DNA of 64,000 nucleotides from Bdellovibrio sp. (GTDB taxonomy: Bacteria; Bdellovibrionota; Bdellovibrionia; Bdellovibrionales; Bdellovibrionaceae), in the NCBI GenBank assembly GCA_046318155.1, contig JBKCUU010000011.1, positions 38,922 through 102,921 on the forward strand. The letters run 5' to 3'. Made by a program: the position numbers. Shown one piece after another: positions 15,001 through 27,000 of the stretch. The stretch's first letter is position 1, and each line of letters starts with the position of its first letter.

Positions 15001-18000
15001 TTGGTGCTCACGCGGATTCAAGTTCGCACTACCACGCCCAGGGTGAAGGTATCGATAAGCGAGATCTGCAAAGTTATTGCGGATGCACGCAAGTGATCAA
15101 AGTTGCCGTTAAACGGGGAGAGAGGATTGGGGTTGCTCATTTAAACGATCGTCCCATTCTTGCTAAGCGAGTTCTGTTTTGCACGGGGACTTTTCCGAAC
15201 CCGCGTGTTTGGAATTCTGATTTTGCGAGCCTGTCTCCAGAGCTTATCGAGTATTTAGATCATCAAGGTGTGCGCCTCGTCGGAATCGATACACCCAGTG
15301 TTGATCCCGAAACATCCAAGGGACTTGAGTCCCATCATGCACTTTATAAAACTCAGATGTCTGTTCTGGAAGGCATTGTTTTGGACGGAGTGCCCGAAAG
15401 CCTATACACGCTGGTGGCGCTTCCGCTGCCATTCAAAGATTCAGATGCTTCACCGGTACGCGCGCTGCTCTTTGAAAAGCCCGATTTGTTTTCAGAGCAA
15501 GCTTGGAGTGTGGTTCAAACGCGATCTTCTTGGTAAGCCAAAGTTTACCAGGGTGCGCGCGGCGGCGGCTTAACTCTTTTCTTTTTCGCGAGTTCGGAGT
15601 GCCAGCAGGACCAAAAAATCCCCCAGATCAGAGCTGCATTGAAAAAAGAGGCCATGCCCCGACAGCGCGGATTTCGACATCGCTAAGTTCTGACCGATGA
15701 TGGCCGTCGGGAATGAAGGCTCAAAATCAAAACCATCTTCGTTGATGTCTTTTCGAGCGCTGGCGTAAACGATGTTTAAAATCTCACTGGCGGCATCCGC
15801 ATTTTCGACTGTGATCTTGTCGATTTTTTCTCCCAGCATTTGCTCGATCAACTTGAAATAGGTTTTTTCAGGAAAGCCAATTGAGAGCGATCCCGCATAG
15901 CCACTCGACTTCATCGGAAGCGTACTCAGGCAGTCGATCGAATAGAGCTCAGCGGTCTCTGGCTTCATACTGAGGTTGCGAACCTGAGCTTTTGTTGAGA
16001 GCTGGACGTGGAATGCATTCACGATTGATTTGTCAATATGGGCGGGGATCGCCTTAATTTTTCCGCTCATTTTTCAGTTACCTTTTTGTGGGCTTGCTCA
16101 AGCTTTTCCCGCAGCGTTTGCGTCGTAAACGGCTTGATAATGTAATTGGTGACGTCGAGTTGCAGTGCCGACAAGACCTGGTGCGATTCGGATTCGGCCG
16201 TCAGGAGGACAAAAGGCAATTTTGCAAAATTTTCGCTTGCCCGCACTCGCTTCAAAAGCTCGAAGCCTGTGCAGTTTGGCATGTTCCAATCCGAAATAAC
16301 AAGCTCAATTGGTGGTGTGGATGAATTCAAAATTTCCCAACCTTGAAGGCCATCAATGCCATCCTGCACATCGGTAAAGCCAATGTCCTTTAGCGCTTTG
16401 ACGACGATCTTTCGCATTGTCATCATGTCATCAAGAATGAGAATCCGTGTCGTGGGTGCAAACATGTCGATCCTTCACTAGAGTTTCGGTGATCAAGAAA
16501 ATCACTTGAGTCCGAAAATAGTGTGAAGTGTGTCGAAAAAAAAAACGAGACCTGATATTGCTAAGATTCTACGAAGACGATGGAGAGCGACCCACGATGG
16601 CGAGGGTCATGTTAGACTCAGAGAAACAGTTGTCTGAGGTTTGAGATGATAGAGCTCGCGTCATTTGCCGCCTAGACCAAGGGACTAGTGGATCGTTTGC
16701 TGAATCCAGTCGTACATCGCCGGGATCGAAGTGTAGACGCCTTGTTGGACGCAAGGACCGTCACCCCAACTTGTCGCACCAACCAATGTGAGTTGATTGC
16801 CCTCGACCATGTAGGCAGGACCACCAGAGTCGCCCGAGCAAGCCGTTTGACCATTCGTCACCTTGTAAGCGAACTGCACGGGATTTAGAGCGGCATTGTC
16901 GACGGTCACTTCTGTTTTGCGAAGTTCATTTGATGCAATGGGAAAGGGAGCTCCCCGAGTCACGCCGTAACCAGCAAGAACCAGCTTAAGTCCTGCAACG
17001 AGGCGAGCGGGTGAGTCCAAAAGTTTTGCGGCTTTGTAGCCAGCAGGGATGGACGAGTTCAAACGGATAATCGCGATATCGTAAAACGCGACACCGTTGC
17101 CTGCTTTTTCGAGAGCATCCTCAGCCATCACGTAATCGGGGTGAACGGTTGCGGATTTCAGCTCGATCCACTGCGTGCGCGAATCATCAATCGATTTGAC
17201 CAACTTTAATCCGAGACCAATTCGCAGATTCGGTAAAAGTTGATCGACGGTGAGGTCAAACATTTTGGCGACGTCAGCCAGGCAGTGAGCGGCCGTGACA
17301 AGAGTGTCGCTCGCGATGATCGTGGCCGTGCAAAAATTTTCAACACGTGTGGAGTCCGGAAATTTTAAATACAGAGCAACGGTTGATTTTGAAATCACGT
17401 CATCCGCGGTCACGATTCTACCATTGACAATCGTTGTCGTTGCATCAGGGCTTGCAAGCTCGATGGAGCGAGCAGTTTGACCTTCAGGACTGCACCCAAG
17501 CGCAGTCAAAACTGAAAGGCTTGCCACGGTGATTTTGAGTAGTTCGATCAAATTTGCTTTCATTGGTTCCCCCCGGCGAAAAGCTGCTGGTTGTTTCCAA
17601 CGAATCACGCCGCTGTGCAAATCACATTTTGTTATCTGGCACATAAGTGATCTCCCAAAGGATGGCGCTAAGTAATAGATTTAATTGGCATTTGTGTTAA
17701 ATTTCCGGACTCTTTAAAAAATGTAACGCGTCGCAATATTTGCTGTTTGAGGGCGTGTTCAAGGGGCTCGCGGCCTGGTGACTTGGAACAGAATTAGAAA
17801 ACCTGTTCGATCCCCACCATCACGCTTTGGGGTTTGCCCGGACGCAAACCGAAGGGACGCCAAGAAACGGCGTACTCTTTGCCCAGAAGATTGTCGACCC
17901 GAGCAAACAGATGGCCCTGCCTGGTGTACTGATACCGCGTGTTCCAGTCGATGATACCGTAGGCTGGCAGTTGCAGTCGCCCTTGGCTGACCGACTGGTC

Positions 18001-24000: not shown

Positions 24001-27000
24001 ATGGCGGGGATGACTCGTGAGGTTTCGCGTGTGGTTGCCATGGGTTGGAACAAATTTTTTTGCGAAGCCTCAATCAAATTCACAAGGTCCTTGGTCATGA
24101 GACTATCGGCCGGAGTCTGGCTGCCTTCAGCGGTCAGTTTTGCAATCAAAGCCGGATATCCAGCTTCGACGATGATAACCTTCTCTCCCGTCAATGCTTG
24201 AAATTTTTGAGCAACAGGTGTGAGGCGAGCGGTGGGTCGGTCTGTGTAAAGTGTCAGGTCAGCGGTTGCCGTCTGCGCGGTCAAAGCGACCAAAAGAGCC
24301 ATAGCTGTTTTTTTCATTTGCTTCTCCTGAGAGTAGAGTTAGGTTGTGCCCGATGATTTAACCGCTTTTTATCTTTCGGTGAAGGTTTGAAAAAAAACCT
24401 CGGCATTTGCAAGTCTGCTGACAGCCAAATGAAAGCGAAATGAAATGGAGTGACGAATGCCAATGATAAATGCAGTTCTAGGTCTTATCTTGATGTTTTC
24501 TTGCCACAGCATGAGCCAAACAACGAAAGAGGTTTCGACGTTCGTGATTGCTCTCAAACCTGATAAAAATCCTGAAGCCATGATTCAAGAGCGCAAGGAG
24601 CTCGAAGCTTACTTGGCTCTAGAAACTGGACGCAAAGTTCAAGTTGTGATTCCGTTAACGGGCTCGGTCATCCAAGAGGGCTTTATCAACGGCACGATCG
24701 ATCTAGCTTACGTCTCAGGACTTGAGATGGTTCGCGCCGCAAAAACGAAGGCCGCTGATCTCTTGCTCGTCACCGAGGTTGATGGGAGGACCTCCTATGA
24801 ATCTTATTGGGTCAGCCTTAAAGACAAGCCCTATGCAAAAGTGCAAGACCTCAAAGGAAAGCCCGTCACTTTTGCCAGCCGTACGAGCACATCAGGCTTT
24901 TTGATTCCTATGGCCGACTTGGTGCAAAAAAAGTTGATGAAAGAAAAAGCGGCGCCCGAAGATTTCTTTGGCGCCGGCCATGTGACTTTTGGCACAGGTT
25001 ATGTCTCTGCGATTGAACGCGTGCTTGCGGGTCAATCAGAAGCCGCGGCCGTGAGTGACTATGTCATGAAAAAAGACAAACATCTCACGCCCGAGCAAAA
25101 AGAAAAATTGAAAATCGTGACCAAGCAAGGGCCAGTGCCCACTCACATCTTAGCGGTCCGCTCTTCGTTGAAAAAAGAAGACCGAGAGCTCTTGCAAAAG
25201 GCGCTGCTCAAGCTCAACAAAAAAACAGAACTCCGGGACCGCTTATTTACGGCAAAGCTGGTTAAGACGACGTATGACAAACATGTGTCGTCTTTGGCGA
25301 AAGCGCTCGAGCAAACCGGCATCGTGCTGGAGTAACTGAATTGATCAAAGTCCAGAATCTTTTTTTGCAAATTGGAGACCGGGTCCTCGTTGAGGATTTG
25401 AGCTTTCGAGTCGCGCCCGGAGAAGTTGTGGCGTTTATGGGGAGCTCAGGCTGCGGCAAGACATCCGTGCTGAAAACGCTCACGCAAGAGAGGCCTTTGC
25501 AAAAAGGGCACGTCTCGTTCGAAAAGGACTGGGCCGAGATTCCGCAAGACGAATCCTTAAATCCGGAACTCAGTGCTTTGCAAAATGTGAATGTGGGACT
25601 GCTGAAGGATGTTTCATTCTGGTCTGGATTCAAAAAAATTAAAAGTGAACAGCCTCGCATTATGGAGCTGCTCAAAGTCTGGGGTCTCGCAAATCCTGAT
25701 CAGAAAGTAAATTCGCTCTCGGGCGGGGAGAAGCAGCGCGTGTGCCTGGTGCGCGCGCTCGTCACGGAATGGAAAATTCTTTTTGCCGACGAGCCCATTT
25801 CTCAGCTTGATGAAACCAATGCTCATAAAGTCCTTTCTGCACTGCGAGAGGAGGCCAAGCGGCGAAACGGATCAATCGTTTGGGCACTTCACCAACCTGA
25901 GCTCGCGAGAAAGTATTCGGATCGCATTTTGGTTTTTGACGGACGTGGGCATGTTCAGCCCGAAGGTCAGCGATGAGAATTAAAAGTAAGACCCTCTTCG
26001 GTTGGCTCGCTCTTCTCGTCTTGATTGCGCTTGCGTGGCCTGCCTTTCAAGGGTCGGACCGAGACCTGGATTCAGTCGGCTCGTTCTTACATTTTTTTGT
26101 CCGCTTTTTTCCGCCCGACTTTTCGGATGGCCAGGAGTTGTTAAATGGGCTGATCGAAACGGCACAAATTGGATTTTTAGCGACGGTCATTGCCGCCGTC
26201 TTGTCGCTTGGCCTTGGTCTCTTGGGTGGTCCCTGGGTTCATCGGTCGGGACAATTCTCGGTGTTGTCCTTGTTTGCACTGATTCGATCGGTCCCAAGTC
26301 TTGTTTGGGCTGTCATTGCTGTTGCCGCCGTGGGGCCGTTTCCGCGAGCCGGGGTCATTGCACTTACATTTTACTCGATCGGCTATCTCGGAAAATTTTT
26401 GCTCGATGATTTGCGGACACTCAATATGGACCTCACGCGCATGTACCTGCGCTGGGGGCTTTCACCGCTGTGGTCGTTTTACTTGGGATTTTGGCCGCAG
26501 CTTAAAGCCCGCTACTTGGCTCATTGCGTGTGGATGCTTGAGTACAATATTCGTTCGGCAGCGATTATCGGTTACGTCGGAGCGGGCGGCTTAGGCCTCA
26601 GGCTTCACGCGTACCAAGAATACGGGCAGTGGCGGCGCTTCTGTGCGGTCTTGATCATGATCCTTGCAATCGTTCTTCTCTTTGAAATTGTTTCGCGTTT
26701 TCAAGGGCGCCCGAAGCGGCGCGCGAACTAAAACGCGTAGCTCGCTGTTAATCGAACATCACGGCCCACTTCCTTGATAGCCGATCCATGCCGGCGGTAG
26801 CTCCGGTCTAAGACGTTGTTGATCCGCAAGTTTGCCGACCAGATCGATTCTTTAAAGGTCACATAAATATCCTGAGCATAATACTCCGGCGTGTTCGCAG
26901 AACCTGTGGGGACACGAGCTTGTTCTAGAGCCCACTTGGCATCTGTACCCAAAGTCAAATGATCGCTCAAGTATGTTTCAGCTCTTAAATTGAATTGGTC

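What a model noticed while it worked through the whole genome (the two positions that open the first line are those of the whole stretch)
17794..24317. Vitamin K carboxylase homologue inside a TonB iron-uptake operon
A full-length homologue of animal vitamin K-dependent gamma-glutamyl carboxylase (g00259, HTTM + lumenal domain, catalytic-type Lys kept) is translationally coupled between an imelysin (M75) lipoprotein and a TonB-dependent receptor, after TonB and a periplasmic binding protein, and is predicted with controls to bind the imelysin. I read the five genes as one iron-uptake machine in which the carboxylase homologue is the membrane-bound, menaquinol- and O2-using partner that modifies or redox-activates the periplasmic imelysin (gamma-carboxylation of its glutamates being the boldest option), with the VKOR-thioredoxin g01616 closing a bacterial vitamin K cycle. 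New would be a physiological role [...]
Evidence so far: genes.tsv: g00262 SBP, g00261 TonB_C, g00260 Peptidase_M75, g00259 HTTM+VKGC_lumenal_dom, g00258 Plug+TonB_dep_Rec, all on C11(-), overlaps of 4-8 bases g00260/g00259 and g00259/g00258. phmmer vs PDB: human GGCX E 2.7e-36 over residues 7-450 of 476; the lysine aligned with the second K of human GVKKLDADW (catalytic base K218 by my recall of the literature) is kept (AGIAKLGSDW). neighbours.tsv: VKGC_lumenal_dom next to Peptidase_M75 in 3,610 of 4,412 genomes with both (0.82) and next to a TonB-dependent receptor in 2,651 of 6,466 (0.41); the look-up has the lumenal domain in 8 of 383 Bdellovibrionales and 0 of 181 of the family, so it is rare in the lineage. 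In Riemerella the same trio (TonB [...]
(Added by a program. Inside this text positions count along the whole contig: contig position 38,922 is position 1 of the stretch shown here. "Call 12" and the like, gene names such as g00115 and contig names such as C1 are that model's own, and its searches are not shown. The text may have been shortened before it was handed on; [...] marks where a part breaks off. The agent that wrote the report below was given it as the finding of a first reader that could run no searches.)

Follow-up and report, generated by a model that had tools for sequence, protein, structure and literature searches.

The report
Bacterial vitamin-K carboxylase in iron uptake
A bacterial relative of the human enzyme that activates blood-clotting factors sits in a widespread iron-uptake gene cluster and appears to dock onto the neighbouring lipoprotein and reach its acidic tail, which makes that tail a testable candidate for vitamin-K-dependent protein carboxylation in bacteria.

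Summary
The five genes and their couplings are real. The conserved core is a trio: GxxxxE-type imelysin lipoprotein, GGCX homologue (HTTM + lumenal domain), FecA-like receptor; the imelysin lay beside the enzyme in 77 of 80, 71 of 80 and 24 of 30 loci. The enzyme keeps K218, D263, N159, H160, F299 but lacks the propeptide clamp B. A complex model (0.80 vs best control 0.00) docks the imelysin on the lumenal domain; its contact lists include tail 419-424 and the enzyme's Glu/CO2-pocket residues. The only invariant imelysin residues are terminal Asp424/Asp426. Closest relatives of this cluster carry a membrane di-iron hydroxylase instead (16 of 16 loci; the scan noted this swap before on other DNA), and tail position -5 follows the partner: Glu/Asp in 88 of 119 with the carboxylase, Gln in 26 of 33 with the hydroxylase. 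Best reading (0.45): menaquinol/O2-dependent carboxylation of the tail (Glu422 to Gla, else Asp424), giving a protein-tethered Fe3+ chelator. No activity is shown. The VKOR 'vitamin K cycle' is unsupported (VKOR in 298 of 301 class genomes, lumenal domain in 8). I found no paper assigning this function.

The parts
23331..24317 (-). FbpA/FutA-like periplasmic Fe3+-binding protein, 328 aa; lineage-specific part of the cluster
   Evidence: Pfam SBP_bac_8/1/6; best PDB hits all Fe3+-binding proteins, 7li0 E 9.7e-68; present in 3 of 80 enzyme loci but in 16 of 16 di-iron-type Bdellovibrionia loci
22708..23334 (-). TonB, 208 aa
   Evidence: Pfam TonB_C, TIGR01352; overlaps the binding-protein stop by 4 nt
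21424..22704 (-). Imelysin-like lipoprotein of the GxxxxE (IPPA / PA4372) type, 426 aa; proposed substrate and metal carrier
   Evidence: Pfam Peptidase_M75; G173-L-S-A-L-E178, no His; best fold match IPPA 3pf0; Cys21 in >=90% of 120 homologues
22642..22644 (-). Cys21 of the lipobox (LVA-C)
   Evidence: sequence; nearly invariant in alignments A2 and A5; lipidation is inferred
21427..21444 (-). C-terminal tail I421-E422-G423-D424-N425-D426; candidate modification site (E422 first, D424 second)
   Evidence: D424 and D426 are the only invariant columns of 120 imelysins; pLDDT 52 in the monomer; residues 419-424 in the predicted interface; position -5 tracks the partner enzyme
20001..21431 (-). 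GGCX homologue (HTTM + VKGC lumenal domain), 476 aa; start ATG lies inside the imelysin's Asn-Asp codons
21096..21101 (-). N111-H112 (= human N159-H160, substrate carboxylate ligands)
   Evidence: alignment; invariant in 119 of 119 rows counted; roles from PMC12647623; in the predicted interface
20922..20924 (-). [quoted passage not shown]
20376..20426 (-). W336-K352 WSEEGMRFSWKVMVREK (= human W390-R406); M341 for Y395, V347 for M401, K352 for R406
17794..20004 (-). TonB-dependent outer-membrane receptor, FecA-like, 736 aa
   Evidence: Pfam Plug + TonB_dep_Rec; only PDB hits at E<=1e-12 are FecA, E 3e-24 over the plug region; below the FecA equivalog cut-off

Best explanation
The GGCX homologue is an inner-membrane, menaquinol- and O2-dependent carboxylase whose substrate is the imelysin lipoprotein encoded just upstream. 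The folded imelysin docks with its last helix (402-417) and loop 282-290 on the enzyme's lumenal domain, standing in for the animal propeptide, and feeds its flexible C-terminal tail into the catalytic pocket. The enzyme carboxylates a tail acid: most likely Glu422 (hydrophobic-Glu dipeptide I421-E422) to gamma-carboxyglutamate, otherwise the invariant Asp424 to a malonate as MloH does. The malonate, with Asp424, Asp426 and the free C-terminus, makes a protein-tethered Fe3+ chelator; the matured lipoprotein captures iron and works with the FecA-like receptor, and in this lineage TonB and an FbpA-like protein complete the route. Shown: genes, linkage, conserved catalytic residues, tail conservation, partner swap. 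Modelled only: the complex. Inferred: periplasm-facing topology, the chemistry, the site, metal binding by the tail, hand-over of iron.
For: Imelysin directly beside the enzyme in 77 of 80 GTDB loci and 71 of 80 metagenome loci (most misses cut by contig ends) and 24 of the 30 best loci of a Myxococcota sample, although the receptor subfamily changes between phyla. Imelysin-linked enzymes form one branch (97% SH-aLRT, quick tree; 41 linked + 1 without imelysin + 1 of unknown context). N159, H160, K218, W223, F286, F299, M402 equivalents invariant in 119 of 119 rows, D263 in 118 (1 Glu); roles from PMC12647623. Complex score 0.80, best of 3 controls 0.00; the mark was reached by 116 of 157 solved complexes and 2 of 215 mismatched pairs (counts hold only roughly with my alignments); runs agree in >=80% of contacts, partner pLDDT 86; interface lists hold enzyme 110-112, 247-252, 347, 351 and imelysin 419-424. 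Enzyme strand 366-380 in the interface aligns with human 416-431, which holds propeptide contacts Y425, L426, V430, F431. D424/D426 the only invariant columns of 120 imelysins, kept also in 29 loci where the codons do not supply the next ATG; tail disordered alone (IPPA 384-389 disordered in PMC3143127). Position -5: Glu/Asp in 88 of 119 enzyme-linked, Gln in 0; Gln in 26 of 33 di-iron-linked, Glu/Asp in 1; the window's imelysin nests among 28 di-iron-linked ones (97%, FastTree) yet has Ile-Glu. Human target Glu is usually preceded by a hydrophobic or long aliphatic residue. Bacterial precedent MloH carboxylates Asp (second-hand). menA, menB, menC, menE, menD present. Riemerella trio listed as iron- and Fur-regulated.
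Against: No activity or modified residue is shown. The residue pairs printed for the complex cover only the helix/loop docking; tail-to-pocket pairs were not printed, and 425-426 are not listed. GGCX-peptide complexes are solved, so placing an acidic tail in the pocket may be remembered. The same terminal D-G-D occurs in 4 of 4 proteobacterial GxxxxE imelysins without HTTM (DUF1513 annotated next in 2), one with Glu at -5. 20 of 63 Myxococcota/Bdellovibrionota partners have Ala at -5 (acid then mostly at -7/-8), 8 of 119 have no extra acid in -9..-4, and 3 of 5 di-iron-linked Myxococcota imelysins do carry one. Kin are not independent: only a few separate swaps underlie the counts. Y395 is Met in this clade (Tyr in 52 of 55 Bacteroidota-type rows), N290 is Thr, M401 is Val, and human residues past about 504 are absent. 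The replacement enzyme is of a family whose iron site is described as cytoplasmic (PMC13486548), hard to square with a periplasmic tail. A Leptospira orthologue was reported to epoxidise vitamin K without carboxylating test substrates (Rishavy et al. 2005; recalled, not seen). Unmodified IPPA did not bind ferric ion in thermofluor tests, which fits either no binding or a missing modification. No Fur box found upstream.
Confidence: 0.45

Rival explanations
1. Redox partner without covalent change: the enzyme binds the imelysin stably and uses menaquinol (as reductant, or with O2 as epoxidase) to change the oxidation state of, or release, iron held by the D-x-D tail, filling the slot that peroxidases (EfeB, DUF1111) fill for other imelysins.
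For: Imelysins are almost always linked to a redox enzyme (PMC3143127). The slot is filled alternatively by a di-iron oxygenase. D-x-D tail is older than the HTTM link. Viral homologues are proposed to be epoxidases only (PMC13486548).
Against: The carboxylate-binding N159/H160, CO2-stacking F299 and the 390-406 motif that viral epoxidase-only forms lack are kept in every row; Glu/Gln at -5 follows the partner; in some loci a DUF1111 di-haem enzyme is present as well as the HTTM gene.
Confidence: 0.2
2. The true substrate is a lipid or small molecule (for instance an acyl chain or a membrane-bound chelator precursor) that the carboxylase homologue and the di-iron hydroxylase can each functionalise; the imelysin only binds the product or scaffolds the enzyme.
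For: The replacing enzyme belongs to the fatty-acid hydroxylase/sterol desaturase family with intact His boxes; giant viruses fuse an HTTM domain to such a desaturase; MloH acts on a natural-product intermediate. The two enzymes never shared a locus (0 di-iron hits in the enzyme loci).
Against: No biosynthetic genes travel with the trio in the loci read (only homologues of the cluster's genes were scored systematically); the model puts the protein tail at the pocket; in Myxococcota 9 of 18 genomes with the di-iron gene also have a lumenal-domain gene.
Confidence: 0.17
3. The tail is the target but the carbanion is not carboxylated: it is hydroxylated or epimerised (L to D), which would match a hydroxylase as the alternative partner.
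For: Clade-specific changes around the quinone/CO2 pocket (T for N290, V for M401); swap with an oxygenase; HTTM-domain proteins of linaridin clusters are linked to epimerisation (recalled; no call).
Against: F299, M402 and H160, which trap CO2 in GGCX, are invariant; both characterised full-length relatives known to me (GGCX, MloH) carboxylate.
Confidence: 0.12
4. The receptor (or another exported protein) is the substrate, carboxylated while unfolded in the periplasm.
For: Receptor near the enzyme in 71 of 80 and 73 of 80 loci; many invariant acids, e.g. E89-D90 in the plug; one HTTM-receptor fused ORF (single contig, possibly a read-through).
Against: Receptor subfamily and position vary while imelysin-then-enzyme order does not; closely related receptors work in di-iron clusters. 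Not modelled.
Confidence: 0.04

Closest known systems
[quoted passage not shown]
   Same: Fold (TMq up to 0.81); K218, D263, W223, N159, H160, F286, F299, M402 kept; lumenal domain used as docking site in the model.
   Different: Ends before clamp B and the C-terminal domains (no match past about human 504); Y395>M, N290>T, M401>V, H404>R, S405>E, R436>E, H440>Q; no propeptide or Gla-domain substrate; proposed substrate is a folded lipoprotein with a C-terminal tail.
MloH of malonomycin biosynthesis (Law et al. 2018; known to me only through PMC12647623, PMC12186529 and bioRxiv 10.64898/2026.08.19.745780)
   Same: Bacterial vitamin K-dependent carboxylase orthologue acting on an acidic residue (Asp).
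   Different: Acts on a polyketide-peptide intermediate; here no biosynthetic cluster, the context is iron uptake and the candidate substrate is a ribosomal protein. Sequence not compared.
Fur-regulated imelysin operons: P. aeruginosa PA4370-PA4373, V. cholerae VC1264-VC1266, Leptospira LruB cluster, IPPA family (PMC3143127)
   Same: GxxxxE imelysin of IPPA fold ending in D-x-D; in Chondrinema, Persicobacter and G022 the full order imelysin - DUF1111 - GxxxxE imelysin is kept and the HTTM gene follows.
   Different: The gene after the GxxxxE imelysin is HTTM here, DUF1513 in the Azospirillum and Sulfitobacter records, a di-iron hydroxylase in most Bdellovibrionia; the window's cluster has neither the GxHxxE imelysin nor DUF1111 beside it.
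Riemerella anatipestifer RAYM_09779-09794 (PMC5609570, Table 4 rows)
   Same: TonB-dependent receptor, 'vitamin K-dependent gamma-carboxylase' and imelysin listed together as iron- and Fur-regulated.
   Different: Listed only; no function discussed in the passages seen; sequences not compared here.
Giant-virus VKOR / carboxylase-like epoxidase / desaturase modules (PMC13486548) and DUF5819 + HTTM split enzymes (bioRxiv 10.64898/2026.08.19.745780)
   Same: HTTM domain with K218; link to a di-iron desaturase family.
   Different: Viral forms lack the 374-418 carboxylation motif that is present here; the DUF5819 system is a split enzyme with no iron-uptake context.

Membership tests
Vitamin K-dependent carboxylase (GGCX/VKGC) | HTTM membrane domain plus lumenal domain, GGCX fold | tested here: met
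Vitamin K-dependent carboxylase (GGCX/VKGC) | Catalytic base K218 with D263 and W223 | tested here: met
   K170, D216, W175; 119/119, 118/119 (1 Glu), 119/119
Vitamin K-dependent carboxylase (GGCX/VKGC) | Glu-carboxylate ligands N159, H160, Y395 | tested here: inconclusive
   N111, H112 invariant; Y395 is Met here and in 62 of 64 Myxococcota/Bdellovibrionota rows, Tyr in 52 of 55 Bacteroidota-type rows
Vitamin K-dependent carboxylase (GGCX/VKGC) | CO2 pocket F299, M401, M402 and quinol ligand N290 | tested here: inconclusive
   F252 and M348 invariant; M401 is Val, N290 is Thr throughout the imelysin-linked clade
Vitamin K-dependent carboxylase (GGCX/VKGC) | Bipartite propeptide clamp (A and B) and propeptide-bearing substrate | tested here: not met
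   match ends at about human 504; only the lumenal-domain half is present; no propeptide in the imelysin
Vitamin K-dependent carboxylase (GGCX/VKGC) | Quinol-, O2- and CO2-dependent formation of Gla | not testable with these tools
   needs enzyme assay or mass spectrometry; menaquinone genes are present
Vitamin K cycle (carboxylase + dedicated epoxide reductase) | VKOR linked to or co-distributed with the carboxylase | tested here: not met
   VKOR-DsbA fusion on another contig; VKOR in 298 of 301 vs lumenal domain in 8 of 301 class genomes
IPPA / PA4372-type imelysin-like proteins | Imelysin fold with GxxxxE in place of GxHxxE | tested here: met
   G173-LSAL-E178; best fold match 3pf0 (definition in PMC3143127)
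IPPA / PA4372-type imelysin-like proteins | Operon with a GxHxxE imelysin and a DUF1111 di-haem enzyme | tested here: not met
   single PF09375 hit in the genome; DUF1111 seen in only 3 of 80 Bacteroidota-type loci and in L101, L102
FecA ferric-citrate receptor | NCBIfam equivalog score | tested here: not met
   108 bits vs cut-off 1100; FecA-like only
FbpA/FutA Fe3+-binding proteins | Full-length similarity to solved Fe3+-binding proteins | tested here: met
   28 distinct PDB sequences at E<=1e-15, best 7li0 9.7e-68; metal ligands not mapped on a structure
Fur-regulated iron-uptake operon | Fur box and induction by iron limitation | tested here: inconclusive
   no match to the recalled E. coli consensus upstream at >=13/19; two Fur-family genes in the genome; regulation shown only for the Riemerella genes

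The most novel reading that the evidence does not exclude
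Thousands of bacteria build a protein-tethered siderophore: a membrane enzyme matures the C-terminal tail of an iron-capture lipoprotein, by vitamin-K2-dependent gamma-carboxylation of Glu where the partner is the GGCX homologue, and by di-iron oxygenation of the Gln at the same position where the partner is the hydroxylase. Bacterial protein Gla would then be an iron-binding modification, and docking of a folded substrate on half of the clamp would be the ancestral state of the animal propeptide system.
Probability: 0.3. Interest if true: 0.93.

Novelty: new variant of a known kind. Interest (0 to 1): 0.8.

Why it matters
Bacterial GGCX orthologues with a full active site are acknowledged as widespread (PMC12647623), but in the papers I could search the only assigned reaction is MloH's. 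This cluster names a candidate ribosomal-protein substrate, a six-residue site and a physiological setting, and gives built-in controls (Glu versus Gln tail, carboxylase versus hydroxylase partner, in close relatives). One mass-spectrometry experiment can decide whether vitamin-K-dependent protein carboxylation exists in bacteria and serves iron capture; it would also give the IPPA-type imelysins, which did not bind iron when expressed alone, a function, and bear on where the animal Gla system came from.

Tried and rejected
NEGEFTKE as Gla site: E57, E59, E63 unconserved. D-N-D as an artefact of the overlapping ATG: kept in 29 loci whose Asn codon is AAC. VKOR as a dedicated partner: near-universal in the class. 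Fusion evidence: the search of longer proteins gave 3 hits among 6854 candidates, one HTTM-receptor ORF on a single contig and two with low-complexity insertions, no HTTM-imelysin fusion (weak as a negative). Fur box scan: nothing upstream. Single-sequence scan of GTDB genomes found nothing; the alignment scan did. Sequencing runs: no RNA holder listed. DUF1513: no informative PDB or NCBIfam hit; its fold was not examined. Strict exclusivity of the two enzymes holds at genome level in Bdellovibrionia (none of the 7 lumenal-domain genomes among the 71 with the di-iron clade) but not in Myxococcota (9 of 18). Three other, short or distant HTTM genes in the genome lack the lumenal domain. Papers without relevant content: PMC9478572, PMC7567364, PMC12546842 (passages). 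Both trees are quick ones (the careful run did not finish; FastTree) and no clade test was run. Inter-protein coevolution was not attempted (120 pairs is too shallow).

Full report
Observation. Junctions are tight: 4-nt overlap, 3-nt gap, 8-nt overlap, 4-nt overlap. The HTTM gene starts at an ATG inside the imelysin's last Asn-Asp codons and gives 476 aa; residue numbers below use it. It matches human GGCX by sequence (E about 5e-36 over 7-450) and by fold (model pLDDT 91.7; 16 GGCX chains are the only matches at E<=0.001). The binding protein is FbpA/FutA-like, the receptor FecA-like but far below the FecA cut-off. The genome is a 95% complete member of a class whose loci with names are Bdellovibrionota; it has menA, menB, menC, menE and menD.

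The enzyme. Mapping on human numbering from the alignment, with roles read in PMC12647623 sections 7, 9, 10, 12, 13: N159, H160, K218, W223, F286, H287, F294, F299, W399 and M402 equivalents are invariant in 119 rows (64 Myxococcota/Bdellovibrionota, 55 Bacteroidota-type; one row of the 120, L018, was left out of this count), D263 in 118. Changed throughout: K217>A, N290>T, M401>V, S405>E, R406>K. Y395 is Met in 62 of 64 rows of the first group and Tyr in 52 of 55 of the second. Human residues past about 504, including clamp B, have no counterpart. In a quick tree of 52 homologues the 41 imelysin-linked ones fall on one branch (97%) with one unlinked and one unplaced row; the 9 other unlinked homologues keep N290 and mostly M401. 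So this is a distinct, catalytically intact-looking clade tied to imelysins.

Linkage. An imelysin gene was found beside the enzyme in 77 of the 80 best GTDB loci and a related receptor in 71 (three loci duplicate ones; 2 of the 3 misses are cut by contig ends), and in 71 of 80 metagenome loci chosen with a Bacteroidota query (receptor in 73; the 9 misses have at most about 1 kb upstream). These sets are picked by similarity. In an evenly drawn Myxococcota sample 50 of 151 genomes have the lumenal domain, and 24 of the 30 best-scoring loci have the imelysin directly upstream. TonB and the binding protein occur in 3 of 80 loci each. In Chondrinema, Persicobacter and G022 the order is GxHxxE imelysin, DUF1111 di-haem enzyme, GxxxxE imelysin, HTTM (for G022 the middle gene was not identified), i.e. 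the HTTM gene stands where DUF1513 stands in Azospirillum and Sulfitobacter records. In Riemerella the receptor, 'vitamin K-dependent gamma-carboxylase' and imelysin are rows of a table of genes up under iron restriction and in a fur mutant (PMC5609570, passages).

The imelysin. It is a lipoprotein-type (Cys21) member of the GxxxxE family (PMC3143127 passages and sections 9, 12). Of 78 first-group imelysins 76 end in D-N-D, one in D-D-D and one is frameshifted; 73 of 73 complete Bacteroidota-type ones end in D-G-D or D-S-D. In the 120-row cross-phylum alignment D424 and D426 are the only invariant columns. This is not a by-product of the overlapping start codon: 29 of 77 loci keep D-N-D with an AAC codon that supplies no ATG. 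The tail is poorly ordered in the monomer model (pLDDT 52 for 421-426), as in the IPPA crystal. Against a special link to HTTM: 4 of 4 proteobacterial GxxxxE imelysins without HTTM also end in D-G-D.

Complex. Enzyme 5-458 with imelysin 52-426, each with a 120-row alignment, scored 0.80 against a best control of 0.00; the mark was reached by 116 of 157 solved complexes and 2 of 215 mismatched pairs (roughly valid only, as my alignments were used); runs agree in at least 80% of contacts, partner pLDDT 86. The best-defined pairs join imelysin helix 402-408 and loop 282-285 to lumenal-domain strands 353-355, 369-371, 417-419, 425. Strand 366-380 aligns with human 416-431, which holds the propeptide contacts Y425, L426, V430, F431 (the local register of the alignment is uncertain). 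The confident interface also lists enzyme 110-112, 247-252, 347, 351 (the Glu and CO2 pocket) and imelysin 419-424. That the tail is what touches the pocket is my inference: those pairs were not printed, and 425-426 are not listed. GGCX-peptide structures exist, so this placement may be partly remembered. The model supports binding; it does not show it.

The partner swap. Searching the class with the imelysin alignment found 108 of 301 genomes with a match, many with full-length relatives but no lumenal domain. In 16 of 16 such loci fetched (chosen from the top matches) the binding protein, imelysin and receptor are joined by a fatty-acid-hydroxylase-family membrane protein with intact His boxes instead of HTTM. 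This clade is in 71 of 301 class genomes at E<=1e-40, none of them the 7 with the lumenal domain over cut-off; it has no hit in the own genome or in any enzyme-containing locus scanned. The window's imelysin, receptor and binding protein are closer to these di-iron clusters (best 42%, 47%, 54%) than to other HTTM clusters (best about 31%, 40%, 36%), and its imelysin nests among 28 di-iron-linked ones (97%, FastTree; 27 with the gene nearby, 1 on another contig). The cluster in the window therefore looks like an in-place enzyme exchange. In Myxococcota 18 of 151 genomes have more distant members; of the 10 best loci 5 show an imelysin next to it and 5 a receptor, in L287 exactly imelysin - hydroxylase - receptor; 9 of the 18 genomes also have a lumenal-domain gene, so exclusivity is per locus, not per genome.

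The tail follows the partner. At position -5 from the C-terminus, enzyme-linked imelysins have Glu or Asp in 88 of 119 and Gln in none; di-iron-linked ones have Gln in 26 of 33 and an acid in 1. Any extra acid in -9..-4: 111 of 119 versus 0 of 28 in Bdellovibrionia but 3 of 5 in Myxococcota (two of these three genomes also carry an HTTM cluster). The window has Ile-Glu where its nearest relatives have His/Tyr/Gln-Gln; human target Glu residues are mostly preceded by a hydrophobic or long aliphatic residue. The counts rest on few independent swaps and no tree-aware test was run.

Mechanism. Most likely (0.45) the enzyme faces the periplasm like the ER lumen (inferred from GGCX), docks the membrane-anchored imelysin, and uses menaquinol and O2 to carboxylate a tail acid, Glu422 ahead of Asp424; MloH gives a bacterial precedent on Asp (seen only as cited). 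The malonate plus D424, D426 and the C-terminus would chelate Fe3+, and the lipoprotein would serve the receptor. Rivals: redox partner without covalent change (0.20), lipid or small-molecule substrate shared with the hydroxylase (0.17), hydroxylation or epimerisation of the tail (0.12), receptor as substrate (0.04). The main difficulties are the HTTM-free D-x-D tails, the cytoplasmic iron site described for the replacing family (PMC13486548 passages), the altered pocket residues and the recalled report that a Leptospira orthologue epoxidises without carboxylating (Rishavy et al. 2005, not seen). The VKOR-DsbA fusion is on another contig and in 298 of 301 class genomes, so nothing ties it to this system; how menaquinone epoxide would be recycled stays open.

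Literature and novelty. Ten full-text searches found no paper holding both HTTM and imelysin, one holding 'vitamin K-dependent gamma-carboxylase', iron and TonB-dependent receptor (the Riemerella table), and no functional assignment. The library lacks most subscription papers, and no supplements were read; they may hold more. Also seen: PMC12589487 (first third), PMC4555120, PMC9478572, PMC7567364, PMC12546842, PMC12186529 and bioRxiv 10.64898/2026.08.19.745780 (passages). Verdict: a new variant of the imelysin/TonB iron-uptake operons, working like a GGCX system with a folded substrate in place of a propeptide, not shown to be a Gla-forming enzyme; interest 0.8 because one mass-spectrometry experiment tests it.

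Noticed in passing
L265-L280 (G039, G048, G070, G033, G023, G018, G254, G138, G016, G119, G065, G169, G050, G153, G111, G045): Binding protein-(TonB)-imelysin-receptor clusters with a conserved ~315-aa fatty-acid-hydroxylase-family di-iron protein, in varying order and strand, in place of the carboxylase homologue; imelysin tail mostly Q-G-D-N-D.
   Followed up: partly
G115:C269:15288-17450: The di-iron hydroxylase match and the imelysin match lie in one open frame of 730 aa: apparent hydroxylase-imelysin fusion.
   Followed up: no
L288 (G347) and G355:C18:229315-230154; P0271: Hydroxylase in one frame of about 1,100 aa with a receptor (L288; similar length in G355), and an HTTM-receptor ORF of 1,242 aa on a single contig; real fusions or read-through not checked.
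   Followed up: no
window 26728-28713 (-): A second TonB-dependent receptor of the haem/haemoglobin family (TIGR01785 over cut-off) 2.4 kb from the cluster, beyond a divergent phosphonate-type ABC operon (24457-26731).
   Followed up: no
L218, L225, L229-L231, L103-L105, L019: Full-length GGCX homologues without an imelysin keep N290, His at 395 and mostly Met at 401, closer to the animal pocket; their substrates are unknown.
   Followed up: partly
G000:C111:8640-9008, C80:6133-6891, C53:11603-12061: Three further, distant HTTM-domain genes in the genome without the lumenal domain.
   Followed up: no
L192, L194, L195 versus L101, L102 and Myxococcota loci: DUF1513 follows the GxxxxE imelysin in Pseudomonadota (ubiquinone users, from my own knowledge) and HTTM in menaquinone-using phyla; the partner may follow the host's quinone. 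Only a handful of records seen.
   Followed up: no
L273:3217-3792 and L276:3122-3697: A small PepSY-associated membrane gene (weak Pfam hit for L273) directly upstream of the binding protein in two di-iron clusters.
   Followed up: no
window 9991-10879 (+): MerC-family membrane protein followed by a HiPIP-family protein.
   Followed up: no
window 24330-24460: The region upstream of the binding protein shares short TTTCATT-like runs with the three related Bdellovibrionota loci but no Fur consensus; possible regulator site.
   Followed up: no
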